The notes beneath the pieces are model-generated. The model was not told the origin of the DNA. It searched no databases and saw only the letters and a list, made by a program, of their open reading frames with translations. The position numbers and the translations under genes were made by a program. Shown here piece after piece: positions 15,101 to 27,679 of a stretch of DNA of 64,000 nt. Positions within the stretch are counted from its first letter, which is position 1. The number at the start of each line of letters is the position of its first letter. The DNA is from Phyllosticta citribraziliensis (Eukaryota): the NCBI RefSeq assembly GCF_038025025.1, contig NW_027117344.1, positions 1,984,001-2,048,000 on the forward strand, given 5' to 3'.

Positions 15101-16257
15101 CCTGCTCCGGTTCCCTTGCCTTTCCTTGCCTGCGCGTACAATGTCTTTCATCCTTTCGCCCACGCCCGGTCGTAGCTTCTCTTCACTAACTCCGACAAGG
15201 CCTCCAGCAAGCCAAAGATGTCTTGCTCTTCTCATCCCATTTGTTTTTATGACCGCGTTTCCATTCTCAGCTCGCAACTGTGCAGACATAACGCGACCTG
15301 CCGAAACCATGCTCGCCAACCGCAGATATTCACAACGGAGAGACTGACACCAGTCGTGCACATGAATTCGAATAACACTCTTTATGTCGGAGGTCGGAGT
15401 CTGAGGGCTGAGCTTTTTTCCCTTTTCTGCTGGGAGTAGGGGTCGAACTGGCCTGGCATGAATAAGATCTACAAATGACTTGGTGCCAATCCTCAGTTGG
15501 CTCAGAGTTGCAAGTGTGAAGACCAGGACTTCGAGTCTCGCCAACCAATCAGAATATGCCTCGGGGCTTGGAACTGGGCAATTGCTTCTCAGCTGGGACA
15601 AAGAACCAGTATTCCTTGAATGTTTCCCAACTCAGCCTTTCATGAGAAGTTTTGGGCGACTAAAAAAAGTTGCTGCCCGTACCTGAGCAATTGTCATTCG
15701 ACAACCCAACTTGAGTACGGAAGTCCAATCTTCAGTCGGCCAGCCAGCAATCCATCACATCATGGTCAACTCTGTTCGCCAAAACGCCAGAGAGCTTGAT
15801 GGCTGCTTGAATTAACCTTGGGCTCGGCAACGCAGCGACAGGCCGGGGCCATCCGGCGCGTCGGGAGTTTTTCCAGGTCCCGACATGCAGTCGGTCTTTG
15901 GGCAGATGCGCCGACTTGTCCAACGAATCGGTGCTACAACAAAGGACGAAGCGATTGAATGCATATGGGTTCTCATGACGCAGACGGAGAATGTGGCCGA
16001 TCTTGGAGCATGTCTTGTGTCGTGGCACGCCTGGCCTGGAGCTGTCGACTTTGAGTTCGGAAGCGACGGGCGCACGCCGAGCGATTGTTAAGCTGCAGAC
16101 GAAGAGGTCAGCTAGCGAGTAAGGATGCAGCGAGTACTAAGTGGTGCATTTCTGCACCACCGGTCGGTCGGCCGGGTCAGCGTGCAATTGGTCGTCGACT
16201 GACTGACTACGGGCGGGATCTTTCGACTTCGCGTTTGCCTCTCGACGTTCCAGCGCA

Positions 16258-17342
16258 ATGGCCGAACCGAGGCAAGTTACTATACCCCCAAGCGGCGTCT
16301 GGTGAGTGCTGCCCTACTCTTTACTTTTGCTAGTCATTTGCATTTGCCTTCAGCTTGTCCGTACAGACATGATCCAGGGCTCTTTTCGGGCTTGATCTGC
16401 CTGCTGACGTCTGCCAACAGGGTACCCGCCATCACCTTCTACGACGACAGCGACGAACTCAGCCTCGATGCGCAGGCTCAATACTATCGCTACCTCTCCA
16501 CGACGGGCCTGGCGGGACTGGTCATCTTGGGAACCAACGCGGAAGCCTTCCTCCTGACGCCCGATGAGAGACGTACATTGATTGCGACGGCCAGGAAGGC
16601 TGTTGGGCCCGACTTTCCGATCATGGCTGGATGCGGTGCTCACAGCACCAAGCAAGTCCTTGGGCACATCAAGGATGCTGCCGACGCTGGTGCCAACTTC
16701 GCGCTGGTTCTTCCTCCTGCGTACTTTGGCAAAGCATCGACTCCGGCTGTGATTGAACGCTTTTTCGACTCGATTGCCGCCAAAAGCCCGTTGCCAATCG
16801 TCATTTACAATTTTCCCGGCGTCTGCAACGGGGTAGATCTGGACTCTGACCTCATTACGCGCTTGGCATTGAGGCACGAAAACATTGTGGGCGTGAAGTT
16901 GACCTGCGGATCTGTCGCCAAAATCACGCGTCTCTCCGCCGTTTTGCCCAAAGAGCGGTTTGCGACTTTTGGCGGTCAGAGTGATTTCTTGCTCGGTGCC
17001 CTCGCCAGCGGCGCCGCAGGATGCATTGCCGCCTTTGCCAATGTTGCGCCTAGAGTCGTCGTGAAAATCTATGACCTTCACCAAAGCGGCGAGAAAGAGG
17101 AAGCTTTCAAGTTGCATCAGAGCGCAGCTCTGGCTGAGCAGCCTTGCAAGCTAGGGATTGCGGCGACCAAGTACGCTGCTGCCATCTACACCGGAAAGAG
17201 AGCAGGAATCGCAAATGTCGAAAAGCTGGCAAAGCCAAGGGAGCCCTACACTGAGCCGTCAGAAGCCGTGAAGAAAACGGTACAGGAAACAATGGCGGAA
17301 ATCCAACAAATCGAGTCCCGGGTGGCGGAGTCTGGACGATGA
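16258..17342 (+). CDS. DHDPS/NAL-family class I pyruvate aldolase (HOGA1/GaaC-like superfamily)
   Basis: MAEPRQVTIPPSGVW|VPAITF spliced across intron 16302-16420. Motifs GLVILGTNAEA, PIVIYNFP (catalytic Tyr) and NIVGVKLT (Schiff-base Lys). Confidence 0.9.
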
Positions 17343-17957
17343 AGAGGCCAGGGGTGACTGTCTGGTCTCCAGTCTGGCTGCATCGAGGCCGATTTCCGGC
17401 CCCTTGATAGCACGCCGTCAACTCTCGGCTTTCTCAATTCCATTCTCCTTCAAGCAGTGGTACTCCATATGAAGCAAACCATCAGCTTGAGCCAATTGAT
17501 CTTTTGTGCCGTTCACCAGAGACGGAGACGTACCTTCAAACCCTCGTCTTGCGGCTTCCCAACGGACATCACGCCAAGGCGCGAGCTCGCTCCGCCGCAC
17601 ACTCCGGCCTCGCCATTTCAACGACCCGAAAGCACGCAGTCAGCGATGCAGGTGAGTCAATTGGAGTGACTGTTAGATGTGGAGTCGTTGAACTGGGGAA
17701 GAAAGGAAGCACGGCACGCCGCGAGGCCCCCGGCTCTCACTCGGAGAACAAAGCGCGCAGGCGAGCGCCGTAAAAAAAGTGGGAAAGAGTTTTCCAGGCA
17801 CAACATAAAGTCAGGAGGATACCCCTCCTCACGCCATCGTGTTGTTGTCCATTAAAGCCCGCCGCCTTGCCCCCGTGTTGACGGATTTTGAGCCGCATCT
17901 GTCGCATTCTTTTCCAACATCTTCCCTTGAGCCGCAGTCAGCCGCCATTTGCCGAAC

Positions 17958-19291
17958 ATGGGTTCTCTTCCGATCCCGGACTCTCGATTTGCCCATCTGG
18001 ACGAGTATCCTATGGATGAGGCGTTTATGATTATGCGAGACTTTGCTCTGGATGCTCATCCGCACAAAATCAGCTTGGGGGCTGGTGTCTACCGTGACAA
18101 TGAAGCGAAGCCGTGGATTTTGCCCAGCGTCCGCGAGGTAGGAATTTTTTTTCATCCCAAATTCATTGTCACTTATGAAAGACGTCCACCTGCCGTCAAC
18201 AGAATGAATACTGACCTGTTCAGGCTGAGCAACTCATCGTTCAAGACCCAAATACCGACCATGAATATCAACCCATGGCCGGCCATCCTCCTTTCATCCC
18301 ATTGGCGCAAGAACTCACCTTTGGCCCCCTCATGGCCTCGCTGAGCAACCGCATCGTCTCCTGCCAAACCATTTCGGGGACAGGTGCTTGTCACTTTGCT
18401 TTCCGATTCATCTCTGAAGTCACCTCAGCCAAGCGCGTCTGGATCAGCAATCCAACCTGGGGCAACCACCACCTTCTCTGGGACATTTCGGCGCCCCAAG
18501 TAAAGCAGCAGCTCTACCCCTACTACAACGCCAAGACGTGCTCGCTCGACTTTGAAGCCATGATTCAGACGCTCGACGCCGAGGCCCAGCCGGGCGACAT
18601 CATCCTGCTCCACGCCTGCGCGCACAACCCCACCGGAATCGACCCGACGCCCGAGCAATGGGCGGTCATTGCCGACGTGTGCGAGCGCAAGCAACTGTTC
18701 CCCCTCTTCGACTCTGCCTACCAGGGCTTCGCATCCGGCGACCTGGACCAAGACGCCTATGCCATCCGGCTCTTCGCCGAGCGCGGCTTCGAGCTGGCGG
18801 TGGCGCAGTCGTTCAGCAAAAACTTTGGGCTGTACGGGCAGCGCGTCGGAGCGCTGCACATAGTCGTGTCGCGCAGCGACGCAGTCCCGTCCACACAGTC
18901 GCATCTGACCAAGCTCGTGCGCGGCGAATTCAGCACAGCACCGGTGCACGGCGCGCGCATCGTATCTAGGATCTTGAGCGACGCGGCGCTGCGCAAGCAG
19001 TGGTACGGCGATCTGCAGGTCATGAGCAGCCGCCTCAAGGACATGCGCCGCGCGCTGTACGACGAGCTGCGCCGCCTGGGTACGCCCGGCTCCTGGGAGC
19101 ACATTGTCGACCAGATTGGCATGTTCAGCTACACTGGTCTCAACGAGAAGCAGGTCCGCCGCCTCCGCGATGAGCAGCACATGTACATGATGAGCTCTGG
19201 CCGCGCGAGCATCGCCGGACTCAACACGTCCAACGTGGCGGCGGCCGCGGCGGCCATCGATGCCGTCGTGCGCGCTGAGAAACAGGCTTAA
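17958..19291 (+). CDS. Aspartate aminotransferase family (class I PLP) paralogue
   Basis: Motifs KISLGAGVYRDNEAKPWILPSV, NPTWGNH, LHACAHNPTGIDPT, FDSAYQGFASG, SFSKNFGLYGQRVG (PLP Lys), QIGMFSYTGL and SGRASIAGL. Intron 18138-18223. Confidence 0.93.
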
Positions 19292-19408
19292 ACGCCGTCC
19301 AGCCCTCCTGCTGCGCCGAACTCGAGGCGCGTGACTGGCAGGAGGTCCTAAGCTCGTCTCGGATTCAGTCAACATTTCTTCTCGTCGAAAAGCGTTTCGC
19401 GTCGCATT

Positions 19409-20172
19409 CTGCATTGAAAGGAGTTTGTTCAGAGAGAAGGAAAGGAAAGTAGAGGAGGAAGGATACCCCCGCGGGTGAACAACGTCATCACAAGGTCTGT
19501 CGGTGCATAATTTTCTCTTCATGGTCATCAACATCATGTCTTACGTCTGCATCGAAAGGAGTCTGTTCACGTTGGGTTTCAACAGCATGGAAAAATAAAA
19601 CCAAAAAGTGTTGCATGGGGTTGGACGACGTCTCTTTTCGAGCAAGTTATCACAAGGTCTGTCGATGCAGCCAGCGACGCCGCTTTCCCTTTTCTTTTGG
19701 ACGTCTCGGCATTCGCCGGGACCCGTCCCACGTTATCTCGTTTTCGTCACCATCATAATCATCACTGCATTGGAAGGCGTTTGTTCGGGTCAGCAAGAGG
19801 AGGATGAGATGGAGAAGATACCCCCGACTGGACAGAGCATCACAAGGTCTGTCGATGTACACACCATGGCATCGGAAGGAATTGTTCACGGGACTTCAAT
19901 GTTTTTCTTTGCTTTCAAAGGCATGTCGACGTCGTTGCGGTGGCGTGCGCTTGCTGAGCCGTGGCGCTGCAGCGTGGCTGATCGTCTCGCCCTGCGATTC
20001 CGCAAGCGTGGATTCGGCGCCCTGGTGCCACGGTGGGGGAACGTTGTGGTGATGACTTCGCGAGCTGGACGGCGGGAGGAGTCTCCAGCGGCCGAGAACG
20101 AGCATCAGTCGTGGCGGCATGTAGACGTAGTACTGGTACCTGGACAAGTCAGCACAAGGTCAACCTAATGCA
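19409..20172 (+). ncRNA. Candidate structured ncRNA array: four A-arm/B-arm hairpin units (milRNA-precursor-like or tandem cis element)
   Basis: ATCACAAGGTCTGTCG is identical at 19487, 19649 and 19839, with a degenerate fourth copy at 20151. Partially complementary arms GCATYGRAAGG..TGTTC lie at 19411, 19549, 19767 and 19869. Stem variation is almost entirely G.U wobble on the + strand. Confidence 0.5.
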
Positions 20173-20750
20173 AGCATTCATTAAGCAGCAAGAAGCAAAA
20201 TAGGCGGCGGCGGCGGCGCTTTCCACCATGGCAGACCACTGTCTCGGGATAAATTCTTCATGGCGGGTTTTTTGCTTTTTCTTCTTCTCTTCAAGAGGCG
20301 CGGTGGCTTGTCTTGGCTCTTCGTGATCGTCTTGCCCTGCCTTCGGGGAATTTCCGCTGGCTTGTGTCCTCGCGTTCTTTGCTTTTCGCCCACCCACCCC
20401 TCGGACGTCGCATTTTGGCTGAATGCAGGGCTGCAGGTGCTAGCGGTCTGGGCACTTCCCACCCCCACGGTCCGGAAAGCATCACCGTCGTTGTGGCGCC
20501 CAATGATTGAAAGTACGTCGCGTGATTGGAGCTTGTGGTCGGCGGTCGGTCTGATTGGCTGGGAGTTGGTGAAGCAGTCGTCGTTACTTTGATGGAATCG
20601 TAAAAGTCAGTCGGGCATTACCAAATTGGATATGGAGAACCGGCGACCGTCGTGAGTCGTCAAGTGTTGGAAATGTCTAGTCCTTGTCGAAGGGTCCTCG
20701 ACTCGTGAAAAAAGGGTCTTTATACGTCGTGGTATATCGAATGTTACCCA

Positions 20751-23700
20751 TCAGTTCCCTGTCGCCATTGCTTCTCTTGCGCTCACACTCCCCTGCGCCC
20801 TGAAAAGATACGGACTCCGAATGTACTTCTCGTGCCTCCTGAATGTGCCTTCCTCCAGATCCACTGGCTCGGTCTCCTCCAAACTTCTATCCTTGCCCCA
20901 TCCTCCACCTCCAGGCGTCTGGACTACAATGCGATCACCCTTTTGCATGAGCGTTGTAGCCCTGCCTCCAAGATTGATGGTTCGCACGCTGCCGTCGTTT
21001 TCCTTCTTGATCCAAAGGTTGACACCTCGTGCACCTTCGCCACCGCCCGCCATGCCGTAGGGCGCGTTGACTCGGCGCTCGCTCAGGATGGAGACTTGCA
21101 TTGGCCGGCGTAGCTCAATGTCGCGGATGCAGCCGTCGCCGCCCCGACGCAGACCACAACCACCGCTGTTAGGTCGGATGCTGAAGCGATGCAAGAGAAC
21201 GGGGTAGCGCTTTTCAAAGACTTCGGGATCCGTCATGCTATGGAATGTTAGCTCGAATAAACCCAGTAGCATTGTAAATCTTACCGCGTGTTGGTGATGT
21301 GCGTGTGGACGCCGCTCTGGCCCTCCCAGTCGGCACCTGCACCGCTACCTCCTGCAATCGTCTCGTAGTATCCAAAGCCCTTGGTGATGTTGCCGCGCTC
21401 GTCACGCCCACCGTAGCCAAATGTCAGATTGTTACACGTGCCTTGGCTTGCGGCCGCAGCTCTGAAGGCCTTGAAAATCAAATCGACGACGCGCTGACTC
21501 GTCTCTACATTGCTTCCCACTGTTGCGGCCTTGAGGCTTGGTGAGAGCAGCGTGCCGTCGGGACAATACACCTCAATCGGCGTCAGGCAGCCTTGATTCA
21601 GGGGAATGTCGGAGCTAATCATGCAGCGCAGGCAGTAGATGATGCCCGAATACATGATTGCTGGAGGAGTGTTGAGGTTGTTGAAGGCCTCCGGGCCTGT
21701 GCCAGAGAAGTCAAACTTGGCGGAGCCGTCTTCGGGATTGATGGTAATCTTGAGCGCGAGCGGTGTGCCGTCATCCATGTAGTCGATTGCTTCCAGGGGC
21801 TGTCCGCGGAACCGAGTCGAAAAGGTCTTGAGGAGCTCACGCACAGACTCTTCCGCATTCTTTTGAATCGCTTCCATGTAGAAGCGGACGACAGGCCAAG
21901 TGTACTCGCGGACGAGTGAGGTAATGAGGTGGATTCCGCGGTTGTTGGCTGCAATGGCGGCTTTCAGGTCAGCAATGTTGTCGCGAAGCGTTCGAGTGCC
22001 AGAGCAGCCCGGATATTGCGAGGGGACGTCGTAGAGATGGTAGATGAGGCCCTGTTCGTCAAAGACGCCCTCCTTGACCATTTTGAAGGACTCGATGGCG
22101 GCCCCTTCTTGCCAAAGCTCGGTGCTGTTGGGCGGCATTGAGCCGGCTGAGATGCCGCCAATGTCGGCGTGATGGCCTCTATTCGCGACAAAAAAGAGAA
22201 TCTCCTGGGGATTCTTTTCGTCATCAAAGACGGGTGTGATGACTGTGAGATCTGGGAGATGGGTGCCACCGGCACAAGGGTGATTGCTCAAGATGACGTC
22301 TCCAGGCTTGAGCTCTCCTTTCTTGTAGCGGTTGGCTTGGTAAGAAATGGCAGTGCTCATCGACCCCAAGTGGCCTGGAATGTGAGGAGCATTTGCGACA
22401 AGACCACCAGTCGCTGAAAAGACTGCACAGCTGTAATCTAGCCGCTCCTTGATATTTGTCGATATCGAGGTCTTTTGAAGTGTTTGGCCCATCTGCGGAA
22501 TGGTTAGACTTGTAATCATCGAAAGAGATAAACATACCTGCTCCGCAACACTCATGAACCGATGTCCAAAGACACTCAACTGAATCGGATCAATGGCCTC
22601 GGTACTCACGGCCACCTTTTCCGTATCGAGCAACTCAATGACCAGATGCTCGTCTGTAATTGTCGCCTCGCTAGCCGGATCCAAAATAATGGTCTGCGTA
22701 GCATCAATAGCAACGGCCGGGCCCTTGAGCTTACAACCCTTGGGCAAATTCGCAATGCTGTAAACTGGCGAATCTACCCACCCGTCCTTTTCAAAGTAAA
22801 TCTGCCGAGTTGACTTTGCACTGGAAGGATCGACGTAGTTGTCCTTTTGAATCTTTTCCAATTGAGCAAGAGGAGTGGAGACGTGCAAGTCCATGGCTTT
22901 CCCAACACTGCGAACGCGTACATCGTCCACGAGTATATCGCGCGGTTGGGTGAAGCCAAACTCTCTGTGATGTCGCTGGACAAACGCTTGGGCAAAGTCG
23001 CCATCGGCGGGCTTGGAAATCATGAGCGCAGTGTCAGAGCCCTTGTAGCGCATATTCAGGAAATGTTCGTGCTCGACGCGGTTCTCGCGGAAGCCTTGTT
23101 TGGTGAGGGCGTCTGTTGCTTGCGAGCACAGCGACTCAAAGCGGCTTGCGATGCGTCCAGCAGCTTCCGGTCCGTACGCGACTGCTTCTGGTTCCTGCTT
23201 TTCGACCACGACATCCGCCAGTGCCATTCCGTAGGCCGAGAGAATACTGGAGAGCTGGTGAATTAGGACGCGCTTGATTCCAAGGTCTCGCGCAATGGCT
23301 GTCGCATGTTGTCCACCTGCTCCGCCAAAACAAGCCAGGTTGTGACTTGATGTCTCGAATCCTCTGCCCTCGCTGAGAGTGCGAATCGGACGGGTCATGG
23401 CCGCGTTCGCAACTTGAATGAAGCCCATGGCAACCTGTTCAGGAGTAAGCTTGTCGTCGCCATGCTTTTCAGCGTTGACGAGCTCTGTGAGTTGAATAAA
23501 TTTCTTCTTGACAACCTCTGAATCAAGAGGACGGGGAAAGTAGTCTGGAAGAATGCGGCCGAGAAAGTAGTTGGCGTCGGTGATGGTCAAGGGACCTCCC
23601 AAGCCATAGCAGGCAGGCCCAGGATTTGCCCCGGCGGATGATGGGCCGACCTTGAACAGTCCATTCTCCCAAAAGAGAATGGAACCGCCACCTGGACGAA

Positions 23701-24938
23701 GTCAGCAAATTGCACCAGATCTTGAACCAGCAGAGAATGCTCACCTGCTGCCACGGTATTAATGTCCAACTGGGGACTCTGAATTGTGACCTCTGCAGTC
23801 GTACTCTCAAACACGTGCTCCAGAGACCCGCCATATCTCGAAACGTCGGTGCTCGTGCCGCCCATGTCGAAACCCAGCACCGGTGTGCCTTCTTGGGGAT
23901 CAAAGCAGGTCTTTGCGTAGCCGACAACACCACCCGCAGGCCCTGATAGGATTGCCCGCAACCCTGTAAACTCGGTAAAAGGGGTAAGTCCGCCGTCGGA
24001 TTGGGAAAGCAACAGCTTCTTTGCATTGGCGCCCGTCAGTGCCCCCTTGAAGCCTTTCCGAAAGCTGTCGAGGTACTCTGCTGTAATGGGCGAGAGATAG
24101 GCATCTGCGGTCGCCGATTGCGCTCTTGGTACAATCTTGATCATGGGCTGGAGTTGTGAGGAGAGGGCAACCTTGAAGCCCATTCGTTGTGCAATCTTTC
24201 CAACCGCCAACTCGTGCTCAGGAAACGTAAATGAGTGCATGAGGGCGACGGCAATACTCCTGTAGCCTTGGTCCCAAAGAGTCTGGAGATCCTTCTCGAC
24301 GGCTTCATAATCTGGCGTCTTCAAGACTCGAAGTGGCTCGCCCGTGAGTCCGCGGACGAGTTGGGGGTCAGAATCAATTTTAACAGATGCTGGCTCAGGG
24401 TCTTCGGAGAAGCCCTCGACAGTCACCCGTTCATCGACTTCGACAACGGTTTCATAAAGGCGGTCGAGCTTGCGCACCGAGAGATCAAAGAGGTGCGGGC
24501 GCGCTTGATTTCCAATGACGAGAAGGTCCCGGAAGCCTTGGGTGATGAGGAGGGCTACGCGCTCTCCCTTGCGTTCCAGCAATGCACTGCTAAAGTTAGT
24601 AGATTGTCGCCAGAAGATATCGGTCCAGCCTACTTTGTTGCCACAGTAGTGCCCATACGGATCGACTCGACTGGATCCAAATCTATGGGTTCCCCTCGAG
24701 GGATACTTTTGCCCGCGGCAATTTCCAGAATTTGACGGATTCCTTCGGTCGGCGCATCAGGATACTCTGACGAGACTGAAAGGAGTTTGAGGACAACATC
24801 TTCATTTCGTCCAGGAATACGTGCCCAGCTTTTGATGGTCAGTTTGAGTCAGCATGGTGTCGAGCACACTTACAAGTCACAAAAGGTTCCTCCTCGGTCA
24901 ATTGCTATCCGCACACCTTCCTGGGCAATAGAGGGCAT
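20751..24938 (-). CDS. OXP1: 5-oxoprolinase (ATP-hydrolysing), fused hydantoinase A/B family
   Basis: Motifs IAIDRGGTFCD, ILSGPAGGVVG, FDMGGTSTDVSRY, FGGAGGQHA, STNIKERLDYSCA, HPCAGGTHLPD, RGHHADIGG, YYETIAGGSGAG and TPGGGGWG. Introns 24829-24873, 24587-24633, 23692-23744, 22493-22537 and 21238-21284 restore one reading frame. The family is clear, but orthology to housekeeping OXP1 is not established. Confidence 0.93.
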
Positions 24939-27010: not shown

Positions 27011-27679
27011 GGCAACAACTGTGTTAGGTGTGATGGCATCAAAAGTAGTGTTGCAATTGGTCGAAGGCTCAGTCGCAAAAGTCGTGGCGCGTACAATCCT
27101 ACGGTTGTGTAAGTTGGGGCGAATGCTCCCTAGACCTATTCTCCCACGGGCTTGAATGCTCTTGACTGACCTCAACCATCGTTGTGGCTACGACTTTTGC
27201 GATCAAGCCTTGGTCCAAGGGCAAAAGGCAGATTTTCGACCGTGCCCCTCTAGCCGATCCCCTGTGTAACAAATAAGCGCCAAAGCCGTTGCACGCTTCC
27301 CCAGCTTTCAAACTGTCTATGATGAGGAATGCTCCGGGTACGATGGTGGTTGAACGAATTCTCCGTGTTGTTCCCCGCAACTTGAGGACCTAGTCGTCCG
27401 AGGCACTGACGCAACTGACTCGGTGCATCTCCGAGACCGTGGTGGCTCCGAAGCTTGGATGGCTGGACTCTGCGGCGTGGACCTTCTCAAATGGAGCGTC
27501 TGCAATCTCTGGCTCATCCCAACATCACTATCAGCTGTGCCATCTATGCAGCTCCCAGGGTCTGCTGATAACATGAGGCTATAAGCATCGTGGCTCGTGA
27601 GTCTTGATTTCTTTTTCGCACCAACGGGTTTTTATCCGACGGTTGCAAATTCTGTCTTGTCCACGCCTGTGCAGCATCA

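What the first reader, a model, noticed from the sequence alone, without database searches (positions are those of the whole stretch)
19409..20172. Unannotated array of four conserved-arm RNA hairpins (microRNA-like polycistron or tandem structured element) inside the catabolic cluster
Seen: between the convergent 3' ends of the aminotransferase and oxoprolinase, two motifs strictly alternate. Arm A (GCATYGRAAGGNNTYTGTTC-like) lies at about 19409-19431, 19547-19570, 19765-19791 and 19869-19892. Arm B (GRRCA..ATCACAAGGTCTGTCGRTG) lies at about 19476-19507, 19639-19670 and 19826-19858, with a degenerate copy at 20141-20172. The 16-mer ATCACAAGGTCTGTCG is invariant in three B copies, while the spacers (about 10-250 nt) are largely divergent. 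A and B pair: UGCAUUGA/UCGGUGCA, CUGCAUCGA/UCGAUGCAG and GCAUUGG/UCGAUGU, plus an inner helix such as UUGUUCA/UGAACAA or UUUGUUCGG/CUGGACAGA. Nearly every stem substitution gives G.U on the + strand and would be A.C on the - strand, which points to selection on + strand RNA folding rather than a neutral DNA inverted repeat. UUUGU of arm A can alternatively pair with ACAAG of the core, giving an imperfect duplex of about 20 bp. Established: a conserved ~21-nt arm, a less conserved partner arm and a free loop is the signature of miRNA/miRNA* precursors, and fungal milRNAs usually begin with U. Inference: this is a pri-milRNA cluster yielding roughly UCACAAGGUCUGUCGAUGCA, or a tandem protein/ligand-binding element in the aminotransferase 3' UTR. 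Each arm can pair with either neighbour, so two folding registers are possible. I do not recognise it as any known RNA family.
Basis: partly seen in the sequence, partly recalled or inferred. Interest (0 to 1): 0.85.

Follow-up and report, generated by a model that had tools for sequence, protein, structure and literature searches.

The report
Repeated paired motifs in aminotransferase 3' UTR
Two conserved 24-base motifs that can pair with each other alternate three to four times in the unusually long tail of a fungal aminotransferase mRNA; it is probably a regulatory RNA element, but its function, including any small-RNA role, is not shown.

Summary
Arm A (3 good copies and 1 gapped copy) and arm B (3 copies with an invariant 16-mer and 1 degenerate copy) alternate at 19408-20172. 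They occur nowhere else in the 64-kb window.

New here:
- Assembled RNA contigs from two coded runs carry the spliced aminotransferase coding sequence straight through the whole array. They stop at 20182 and 20188, so the array lies in a 3' UTR of about 897 nt, sense strand.
- The window's protein is 100% identical to one that NCBI names from Phyllosticta citribraziliensis.
- Between units the arms are 78-89% identical, while the loops are 42-64% identical, which is near shuffle level for two of the three pairs.
- A more distant relative's contig aligns again exactly over unit 1, after 127 nt of UTR that do not align.

Limits of the hairpin reading:
- Any A pairs with any B.
- There are 0 compensatory double changes.
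- Folding energies are no better than shuffles.
- In the full-UTR ensemble only A1xB2 forms.
- The one-sided changes are G.U-compatible on the + strand in 7 of 8 variable columns.

Best reading (0.4): a lineage-specific cis-regulatory 3' UTR module that presents the invariant B core to a trans-acting factor. The milRNA cluster is untested and fits poorly, because the loops are 57-85 nt. A neutral duplication or transposon relic remains a serious rival. No Rfam family, paper or true metagenome relative was found.

The parts
17959..19291 (+). Aspartate aminotransferase gene. ATG at 17959, one 86-nt intron at 18138-18223, stop codon at 19289-19291.
   Evidence: Pfam Aminotran_1_2, E 7.7e-66. Exon 2 is 100% identical to a protein that NCBI names aspartate aminotransferase of Phyllosticta citribraziliensis. 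The intron joint GT..AG is seen in contigs of X1 and X8. Sequence.
19292..20188 (+). 3' UTR of the aminotransferase mRNA, about 897 nt. It holds the whole array.
   Evidence: The X1 contig (2163 nt) covers 18222-20188 without a joint and then has 20 loose letters that I take for sequencing adapter. The X8 contig covers 18222-20182 and ends there. X9 continues beyond. Two RNA contigs stopping at one place is only a weak hint of the true 3' end.
19408..19431 (+). Arm A1. It carries the P1 5' strand at 19410-19417 and the inner-helix strand at 19425-19431.
19462..19471 (+). 10-mer shared by the loops of units 1 and 3 (copy 1). It contains ATACCC.
19476..19482 (+). 3' strand of the inner helix P2' in unit 1 (TGAACAA).
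19484..19507 (+). Arm B1. The invariant 16-mer is at 19487-19502 and the P1 3' strand at 19500-19507.
19546..19569 (+). Arm A2.
19622..19628 (+). 3' strand of the inner helix P2' in unit 2 (TGGACGA).
19646..19669 (+). Arm B2. With A2 it forms a perfect 9-bp outer helix.
   Evidence: (I3)
19764..19787 (+). Arm A3.
19817..19826 (+). 10-mer shared by the loops of units 1 and 3 (copy 2).
19829..19835 (+). 3' strand of the inner helix P2' in unit 3 (TGGACAG).
19836..19859 (+). Arm B3.
19868..19892 (+). Arm A4, a diverged copy with one deleted base. It lies 8-9 nt after B3.
20140..20172 (+). Arm B4, a degenerate copy that ends about 10-16 nt before the place where the RNA contigs stop.
   Evidence: D3, 82% over 22 nt
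20751..24756 (-). Convergent 5-oxoprolinase / hydantoinase gene. The ORF pieces are 20751-21272, 21281-23602 and 23587-24756.
   Evidence: Pfam Hydantoinase_B, Hydantoinase_A, Hydant_A_N and Hydant_A_C. RNA contigs of X1 and X8 start at 20715 and 20686.

Best explanation
The array is a lineage-specific cis-acting module in the long 3' UTR of a catabolic aspartate aminotransferase mRNA in Phyllosticta. It arose by tandem duplication of a unit of about 100-130 nt. Since then only three pieces of each unit have been kept: arm A, a short inner strand (TGRACRR), and arm B.

On the sense RNA, A can close an 8-bp outer helix with the end of B. It can also close a 6-7-bp inner helix with the TGRACRR strand. 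This would leave the invariant B core (ATCACAAGGTCTG) in a large asymmetric internal loop. Alternatively, A zips onto the B core as an imperfect duplex of 16 pairs.

The B core never varies, while its would-be partner in A does. So I infer that the core is read by something other than A, most likely a sequence-specific RNA-binding protein. I further infer that three to four copies form a multivalent platform that sets the stability, translation or 3'-end use of this mRNA.

Shown: the motifs, their complementarity, the transcription and UTR position, and the unequal conservation.
Inferred: folding in the cell, the binding factor, and the regulatory effect.
For: 1. Position. RNA-derived contigs of X1 and X8, from two studies and two coded organisms, carry the spliced coding sequence and the whole array in one piece.

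2. UTR length. The UTR is about 897 nt. The convergent neighbour's contigs begin only about 35-65 nt past its stop codon.

3. Unequal divergence between paralogous units. Arms are identical at 49/55, 45/55 and 43/55 positions. Loops are identical at 24/53, 30/47 and 22/52 positions (Fisher p = 1.2e-06, 0.046 and 0.00017). Shuffled loops give 43-51%.

4. Conservation in a relative. An X9 contig aligns to the end of the coding sequence at 19105-19279 with 22 other letters. It then has 144 letters that do not align in place of 127. It aligns again at 19407-19506 with 9 other letters and 4 gaps. That second stretch is unit 1 from the base before the first base of A1 to the base before the last base of B1. 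Another X9 contig aligns up to 19857, in the last bases of arm B3 (19836-19859), and then jumps.

5. Complementarity. It exceeds shuffles in units 1-3 (0, 0 and 8 of 300 shuffles as good).

6. Strand bias. 7 of 8 variable helix columns stay paired through G.U on the + strand. Cells paired are 44/45 on the + strand against 35/45 on the - strand, my count.

7. Constraint on the core. The B core is invariant in 3 of 3 copies, while the A positions opposite it vary or mispair in 2 of 8 pairs.

8. Uniqueness. It is the only such array in 64 kb.
Against: - There are 0 compensatory double changes in either structural model. Dealing the B arms out among the units gives the same pairing in 500 of 500 shuffles, so nothing ties A_i to B_i.
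- There is no excess folding stability. Units have z from -2.57 to +1.30. The array has z +0.66 on the + strand. The whole UTR has z -0.06.
- In the full-UTR ensemble only A1xB2 has a high P1 probability (0.99). The other combinations scored are about 0.00; the A4 row was scored one base out of register.
- The three units descend from one ancestor, so their complementarity is one observation, not three.
- The G.U bias (7 of 8 columns, binomial about 0.035) could come from transcription-linked mutation bias (recalled).
- Only fragments of two relatives' sequence could be seen, because most differences were not listed.
- No binding protein or matching known motif was identified.
- Contig continuity does not prove a single transcript, and the strand of the array RNA is inferred from its continuity with the spliced mRNA.
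Confidence: 0.4

Rival explanations
1. Neutral relic. The array is a tandemly duplicated stretch, or a fragment of a DNA transposon end whose subterminal repeats lie in both orientations. It became fixed in the UTR and has no function. The arms look conserved because of recent local gene conversion or chance.
For: There is no covariation and no excess stability. Any A pairs with any B, as expected of repeated inverted motifs. The outer 8-mer is the same double-stranded DNA word in alternating orientation. Unit 4 is decaying.
Against: Arms and loops diverge very unequally. A more distant relative keeps unit 1 about as well as the coding end, while the UTR upstream of it does not align. No other copy lies in 64 kb. 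I saw no consistent target-site duplication at the unit borders (by eye; only unit 3 has a matching 3-mer). The genome-wide copy number could not be tested, because no genome is held.
Confidence: 0.25
2. Small-RNA precursor. One or more A/B hairpins are cut by Dicer, giving an RNA of about 21 nt from arm B. The cutting lowers the host aminotransferase mRNA, and the small RNA may act on itself or on targets elsewhere. This would be a multi-hairpin version of Fgmil-2 in the FgbioH1 3' UTR.
For: The A/B duplex has 16 pairs over 18-19 nt with small internal loops. One arm (B) is more conserved than the other, as in miRNA versus star strand. The element is on a transcribed sense strand in a UTR. 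There is a precedent for a Dicer-made milRNA from the 3' UTR of a metabolic gene (PMC6804420, abstract read). There is no Rfam structural-RNA match.
Against: The inter-duplex loops are 57-85 nt (A-to-B register) or 40, 96 and 8-9 nt (B-to-A register). Well-supported fungal loci have under 20 nt (PMC9757828, section 11). Stability is no better than shuffles. The intact UTR is assembled together with the coding sequence. No complementary site in the window exceeds shuffles. The core string occurs in 0 papers.
Confidence: 0.12
3. Duplicated 3'-end-formation modules. Arm B, which also sits just before the mapped RNA end as B4, is part of a polyadenylation or termination signal. The repeated units then offer alternative poly(A) sites that yield UTR isoforms of different length.
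For: B4 ends about 10-16 nt before the place where two RNA contigs stop. The units are direct tandem duplicates, and a duplicated 3' end would produce that. ACAAGGTC occurs 5 times on the + strand of the window, and 4 of these are in the array.
Against: B4 is the least conserved copy. The contigs run through B1-B3, although contigs cannot show minor ends. I can point to no recognised fungal poly(A) signal in the motif.
Confidence: 0.07
4. DNA-level element. The alternating 8-bp word and its flanks are binding sites for a DNA-binding protein that acts between the two convergent genes, in termination, chromatin or replication.
For: The same double-stranded word recurs 6-7 times in alternating orientation within 450 bp. 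The location is between convergent genes.
Against: The substitution pattern is strand-asymmetric, and a site read as double-stranded DNA would not require that. The conserved flanks of A and B differ from each other beyond the 8-mer. The degenerate 8-mers are not rare elsewhere in the window, with 4-7 copies outside the array.
Confidence: 0.08

Closest known systems
Fgmil-2 hairpin in the 3' UTR of FgbioH1 mRNA, Fusarium graminearum (PMC6804420, abstract read)
   Same: It is a hairpin-forming element inside the 3' UTR of a metabolic enzyme mRNA of a filamentous ascomycete, on the sense strand.
   Different: Fgmil-2 is a single hairpin with sequenced small RNAs and shown Dicer dependence. Here there are three to four units with long loops, no small-RNA data and no excess stability.
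Tandem stem-loop arrays in 3' UTRs that bind one protein several times, such as the five iron-responsive elements of the transferrin receptor mRNA (recalled from general knowledge, no call); Roquin and TTP elements are mentioned in PMC10450656, Discussion passage
   Same: Several copies of a short conserved element lie in one long 3' UTR. Conserved loop or bulge bases are flanked by pairing arms whose sequence may drift.
   Different: Those elements are compact hairpins of about 30 nt with proven protein partners and covariation. Here the arms are 57-85 nt apart, the partners are interchangeable and the factor is unknown.
Khd4 AUACCC regulon of Ustilago maydis (PMC10450656; search listing and passages read)
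   Same: The hexamer occurs twice in the UTR, at the same relative place in the loops of units 1 and 3. In U. maydis it is a 3' UTR decay motif.
   Different: The two copies are paralogues, so they count as one event. The hexamer is not enriched in the window: 12 on the + strand of 64 kb against about 16 expected from length alone (my arithmetic). The organism is an ascomycete. I did not test for a Khd4 relative. Unit 2 lacks the motif.
Subterminal repeats and terminal inverted repeats of DNA transposons and MITEs (recalled)
   Same: Short conserved motifs lie in direct and inverted orientation over a few hundred bases, and the arms can form foldbacks.
   Different: There are no other copies in 64 kb and no consistent target-site duplication. 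The element is syntenic and conserved in a relative's UTR, and its substitutions are strand-asymmetric.

Membership tests
Fungal mi/milRNA hairpin locus (criteria of PMC9757828, sections 11 and 22) | A discrete, replicated small-RNA stack of about 19-25 nt from a hairpin arm | not testable with these tools
   No RNA holder is on record among the 19 runs listed. The runs laid were contigs, which cannot show small RNAs.
Fungal mi/milRNA hairpin locus (criteria of PMC9757828, sections 11 and 22) | A short hairpin, with inter-duplex distance under 20 nt in the well-supported loci | tested here: not met
   In the A-to-B register the distances are 61, 85 and 57 nt, so 0 of 3 units meet it. In the B-to-A register they are 40, 96 and 8-9 nt, so 1 of 3 meets it (coordinates).
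Fungal mi/milRNA hairpin locus (criteria of PMC9757828, sections 11 and 22) | Not in a coding sequence or transposable element, and no match to a structural RNA family | tested here: met
   The element is in the 3' UTR. The best Rfam match in 18800-21000 is 18.4 bits against a gathering score of 50. Overlap with a transposable element could be judged only within the window.
Fungal mi/milRNA hairpin locus (criteria of PMC9757828, sections 11 and 22) | [quoted passage not shown] | tested here: inconclusive
   X8 (another coded organism) covers the whole UTR with 66 other letters and 5 gaps over 18222-20182. An X9 contig re-aligns over unit 1. The per-site differences in the array were mostly not listed.
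Any Rfam family | Score at or above the family's gathering threshold | tested here: not met
   There are 4 matches at E up to 10, and all are far below threshold.
MITE or DNA-transposon end | Dispersed copies elsewhere in the genome | tested here: inconclusive
   There are 0 further copies in the 64-kb window. The whole genome is not held.
MITE or DNA-transposon end | Target-site duplications flanking each unit | tested here: not met
   I compared the flanks of units 1-3 by eye. Only unit 3 has a matching 3-mer, and units 1 and 2 have none.
Structured cis-regulatory RNA (conserved helix) | Compensatory base-pair changes | tested here: not met
   0 of 15 pairs (P1+P2' model) and 0 of 16 pairs (continuous duplex model) have a change on both sides. 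Only 3 paralogous sequences were available.
Structured cis-regulatory RNA (conserved helix) | Folding energy below that of dinucleotide shuffles | tested here: not met
   Units have z from -2.57 to +1.30. The 501-nt array has z +0.66 on the + strand and +1.53 on the - strand. The UTR has z -0.06.
Khd4-type AUACCC 3' UTR element | The hexamer in the 3' UTR, and a Khd4-type protein in the organism | tested here: inconclusive
   The hexamer is present twice. The protein was not searched for. The paper's text does not mention ascomycetes.

The most novel reading that the evidence does not exclude
The array could be a conserved, multi-hairpin small-RNA factory embedded in a metabolic mRNA. Dicer would cut three or more A/B foldbacks in the aminotransferase 3' UTR and release a U-initial RNA of about 21 nt from the invariant B arm. 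The same act would destroy the host mRNA. That would make it a polycistronic, self-limiting version of the single Fgmil-2/bioH1 case, in a genus where no milRNA has been described.
Probability: 0.1. Interest if true: 0.7.

Novelty: new member of a known kind. Interest (0 to 1): 0.4.

Why it matters
Very few cis-regulatory elements are known in the 3' UTRs of filamentous fungi. Almost none are known for ordinary metabolic genes in Dothideomycetes.

This element offers a compact, testable case:
- an invariant 13-16-nt core repeated three to four times;
- flanking interchangeable pairing arms;
- a UTR more than ten times longer than its neighbour's;
- conservation in related species.

If the core is a protein-binding site, it gives a handle on post-transcriptional control of amino-acid catabolism in a genus that includes citrus pathogens and endophytes. 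If it yields small RNAs, it would extend the one known example of a host-mRNA-derived milRNA. If it is a relic, it shows how easily tandem inverted motifs can mimic miRNA-like precursors.

Tried and rejected
- Own genome. None is held, so genome-wide copy number, RNAi genes and a Khd4 relative could not be checked.
- Earlier findings. There is nothing for this place or sequence. A word search returned only bacterial repeat hairpins, which are not relevant.
- Rfam. Only 4 sub-threshold matches.
- Sequencing runs. No RNA holder is listed. X1 and X8 gave no cover at 20223-20626. I do not use either as evidence.
- Metagenome scan with the 19-mer of arm B. It returned 6 loci. L001-L003 hold one isolated match each. 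L004-L006 are one eukaryotic transcript in three versions, 99-100% alike, one of which lacks a 61-nt stretch. That transcript has a 23-nt identity to B3 inside a tandem repeat. I considered it a relative and rejected it for three reasons. Its repeat reads as a repetitive peptide in one frame. It has no A arm or inverted partner. A few chance 19-mer matches are expected in a collection of that size, by my own rough estimate, since the size is not stated. Pfam finds nothing in 5 of its ORFs.
- Covariance model of units 1-3. It finds only its own three units in the window. The loci hits are there by construction.
- Khd4/AUACCC lead. The hexamer was recalled first and then checked in PMC10450656. 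That paper says nothing about a stem-loop context for the motif and nothing about ascomycetes. The window is from an ascomycete.
- Box C/D snoRNA on the minus strand. The reverse complement of B1 has a C-box-like word and that of A1 a D-box-like word (boxes recalled). The other copies do not keep them, and Rfam finds nothing.
- Coding reading. B1 and B2 are in one frame and B3 in another. The 167-aa ORF at 19665-20168 has no Pfam match.
- Splice-site reading of GTYTGT in both arms. The X1 and X8 contigs show no joint inside the UTR, although contigs drop rare forms.
- Trans targets. The best ungapped complement to the A or B core elsewhere in the window scores 11.5, within the range of shuffled queries, 10-14.5.
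- Literature. The core strings occur in 0 papers. Phyllosticta with milRNA gives 2 papers, 1 listed, not relevant. In the Botryosphaeria dothidea milRNA paper the main text has 0 hits. Of its 35 supplementary files, 12 were searched with 0 hits and 23 were not searched.
- One search used coordinates for the unit 2 inner strand that were 2 nt off. One search gives the corrected counts.
- One search returned no answer. I re-ran it.
Full report
**What is in the sequence.**
- Between the stop codon of an aspartate aminotransferase gene (19289-19291, + strand) and the stop of a convergent 5-oxoprolinase gene (20751-20753, - strand), two motifs alternate.
- Arm A has three good copies at 19408-19431, 19546-19569 and 19764-19787, which are 83-92% identical to the reference.
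- The degenerate A pattern matches 3 times against 0.13 expected, and 0 of 100 shuffles reach 3.
- A fourth A copy at 19868-19892 has one deleted base.
- Arm B has three copies at 19484-19507, 19646-19669 and 19836-19859. The 16-mer inside them is exact in all three.
- A degenerate fourth B copy lies at 20140-20172.
- Nothing like these motifs occurs elsewhere in the 64 kb. This holds for pattern search with up to 3 mismatches, for repeat search and for a covariance model run with filters off.
- The B family is the top local direct-repeat family of the whole window.

**Organism and neighbourhood.**
- Exon 2 of the aminotransferase is 100% identical to a protein that NCBI names from Phyllosticta citribraziliensis. 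Next come P. citriasiana at 96%, P. capitalensis at 90% and Diplodia seriata at 73%.
- So this is a Dothideomycete of the Botryosphaeriales.
- Upstream on the same strand lies a gene of the dihydrodipicolinate-synthase/aldolase family at 16203-17342.
- With the aminotransferase and the oxoprolinase this looks like a small amino-acid catabolic group. That is an inference.

**It is in a 3' UTR.**
- I laid Logan contigs of four coded runs on 17900-20900.
- A 2163-nt contig of X1 skips 86 nt with GT..AG ends, which is the aminotransferase intron at 18138-18223 (sequence). It then runs without a joint from 18222 to 20188. There it carries 20 loose letters that I take, from memory, for sequencing adapter.
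- A contig of X8, from another coded organism and another study, has the same joint. It covers 18222-20182 with 66 other letters and 5 gaps, and it ends there.
- X9 has depth in all 30 bins, so it continues across the gap.
- The spliced joint shows that X1 and X8 hold cDNA-derived sequence.
- The array therefore lies on assembled RNA that is continuous with the spliced coding sequence, which makes a 3' UTR of about 897 nt on the + strand.
- Three cautions apply. Contig continuity does not prove a single molecule. The strand of the array RNA is inferred from that continuity. Two contigs stopping at one place is only a weak hint of the true 3' end.
- The oxoprolinase contigs begin at 20715 (X1) and 20686 (X8), only about 35-65 nt beyond that gene's stop. 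So the aminotransferase UTR is unusually long for this locus.

**Is it conserved?**
- Within the array, the arms (A, the inner strand and B, 55 aligned positions) are identical at 49/55, 45/55 and 43/55 positions between units.
- The loops are identical at 24/53, 30/47 and 22/52 positions (Fisher p = 1.2e-06, 0.046 and 0.00017).
- Shuffled loops give 43-51%. So the loop of unit 2 is unrelated to the other two. The loops of units 1 and 3 keep some residual likeness, including a shared 10-mer.
- Between species, one X9 contig aligns to the end of the coding sequence at 19105-19279 with 22 other letters. It then has 144 letters that do not align in place of 127. It aligns again at 19407-19506 with 9 other letters and 4 gaps. 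This second stretch runs from the base before A1 to the base before the end of B1.
- Another X9 contig aligns up to 19857, in the last bases of arm B3 (19836-19859), and then jumps to 19972.
- This suggests that the units are kept about as well as the coding end, while the neighbouring UTR is not.
- I could not see the per-site differences inside the array, because 241 rows of that table were not shown.

**Does it fold?**
- The complementarity is real. The A_i x B_i duplexes of units 1-3 are -18.0, -19.5 and -19.6 kcal/mol. Of 300 shuffles of B, 0, 0 and 8 were as good. A4xB4 is not better than chance, with 86 of 300 shuffles as good.
- Each unit folds with an 8-bp outer helix (P1) and further inner pairs. 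The B-to-next-A register folds in the same way.
- I tested two models. The first is P1 plus an inner helix P2' between the end of A and a TGRACRR strand just upstream of B. It leaves the B core in a large internal loop. The second is a continuous imperfect duplex of 16 pairs between A and the B core.
Slid controls give 30-48%.
- Neither model has a single pair with changes on both sides. RNAalifold also finds 0 of 16.
- Dealing the 3' partners out among the units reaches the observed pairing in 500 of 500 shuffles. So any A fits any B.
- Energies are unremarkable. Units have z from -2.57 to +1.30. The 501-nt array has z +0.66 on the + strand and +1.53 on the - strand. The whole UTR has z -0.06.
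- In the partition function of the whole UTR only A1xB2 forms P1, with probability 0.99. The other combinations scored are about 0.00; the A4 row was scored one base out of register. The B cores are no more buried than the UTR average, with unpaired probability 0.39-0.59 against 0.38.

**Strand asymmetry.**
In P1, 4 of 8 columns vary, and each alternates between a Watson-Crick pair and G.U with an invariant partner.
- In P2', 3 columns do the same and one cell is C-A.
- By my count, 44 of 45 cells pair on the + strand and 35 of 45 would pair on the - strand.
- Duplex energies agree. Over all 16 combinations they are -8.8 to -24.5 kcal/mol on the + strand and -3.8 to -17.9 on the - strand.
- By columns this is 7 of 8, a binomial probability of about 0.035.
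- The result is suggestive only. The inner helix was defined on the + strand. The units share ancestry. The favoured changes (C to U and A to G on the sense strand) are also those that transcription-linked mutation bias would give. That last point is recalled.

**What it most likely is.**
- The invariant B core faces A positions that do vary or mispair (2 of 8 inner pairs have a broken cell). So pairing alone does not explain why the core is frozen.
- This fits, together with the UTR position, the unequal divergence and the re-alignment of unit 1 in a relative. I therefore favour a cis-regulatory module in which the arms frame a core read by a trans-acting factor, repeated to give several binding sites.
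- I put this at 0.4.
- The folding in the cell, the factor and the effect are all inferred.

**The milRNA reading.**
- It is not excluded, and it has a precedent. Fgmil-2 is cut by Dicer from the 3' UTR of FgbioH1 (PMC6804420, abstract).
- Against it, the inter-duplex distances are 61, 85 and 57 nt in the A-to-B register. In the B-to-A register they are 40, 96 and 8-9 nt.
- A re-analysis of 1727 reported fungal loci found this distance under 20 nt in all well-supported ones (PMC9757828, sections 11 and 22, read).
- Stability is ordinary. The intact UTR is assembled with the coding sequence. No complementary site in the window exceeds shuffles.
- The core strings occur in no paper of the library.
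- I put this reading at 0.12.

**Other rivals.**
- A neutral relic of tandem duplication or of a transposon end fits the lack of covariation and the interchangeable arms. It fits the unequal divergence and the cross-species block poorly (0.25).
- Duplicated 3'-end modules (0.07) and a DNA-level site (0.08) are weaker.

**Leads that failed.**
- Rfam gives nothing near threshold.
- The metagenome scan for the B 19-mer gave six loci. Three are isolated chance-like matches. Three are versions of one unrelated eukaryotic transcript, whose repeat reads as a repetitive peptide and has no A arm.
- The AUACCC hexamer in the loops of units 1 and 3 recalls the Khd4 motif of Ustilago maydis (PMC10450656). 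However, the two copies are paralogues, the window is from an ascomycete, and the hexamer is not enriched.

**Verdict.**
The element lies in the aminotransferase 3' UTR on the sense strand. The miRNA-like reading is untested and fits poorly.
- It is a new, lineage-specific example of a familiar kind, repeated motif or stem elements in a 3' UTR. It is of moderate interest until comparative or small-RNA data decide its role.

Noticed in passing
window 27051-27088 and 27187-27224: An inverted repeat with 38-nt arms, 79% complementary, 98 nt apart. It is the longest inverted pair found in the window.
   Followed up: no
L004, L005, L006 (for example L005:1700-2050): A metagenome transcript of an unknown eukaryote with a tandem repeat that holds CACAAGG 12 times on one strand. 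It includes a 23-nt stretch identical to arm B3. One version lacks a 61-nt stretch, which may be an intron. No Pfam family matches. I judged it a chance match, but the long identity is not fully explained.
   Followed up: partly
window 16203-24756: A DHDPS/aldolase-family gene, the aminotransferase and a 5-oxoprolinase lie side by side. This combination could serve hydroxyproline or glutamate-family catabolism, which is an inference from the Pfam families only.
   Followed up: partly
window 18701-18769 and 19088-19157: Much deeper RNA contigs in X1 and X8 (depth 123 and 1216, against 111 and 54 for this gene) align only to these short conserved coding stretches and then diverge. They probably come from a highly expressed paralogous aminotransferase.
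   Followed up: no
window 19432-19475, 19508-19545, 19670-19763, 19788-19828: The loops of units 1 and 3 are purine-rich (GA-rich). The spacers after B1 and B2 are pyrimidine-rich and CAUCA-rich. In the minimum-energy fold the unit 1 loop pairs with the spacer after B1, which encloses B1.
   Followed up: no
window 19665-20168: A 167-aa ATG ORF lies entirely inside the 3' UTR and starts in arm B2. It has no Pfam match and is probably a chance ORF in GC-rich sequence.
   Followed up: partly
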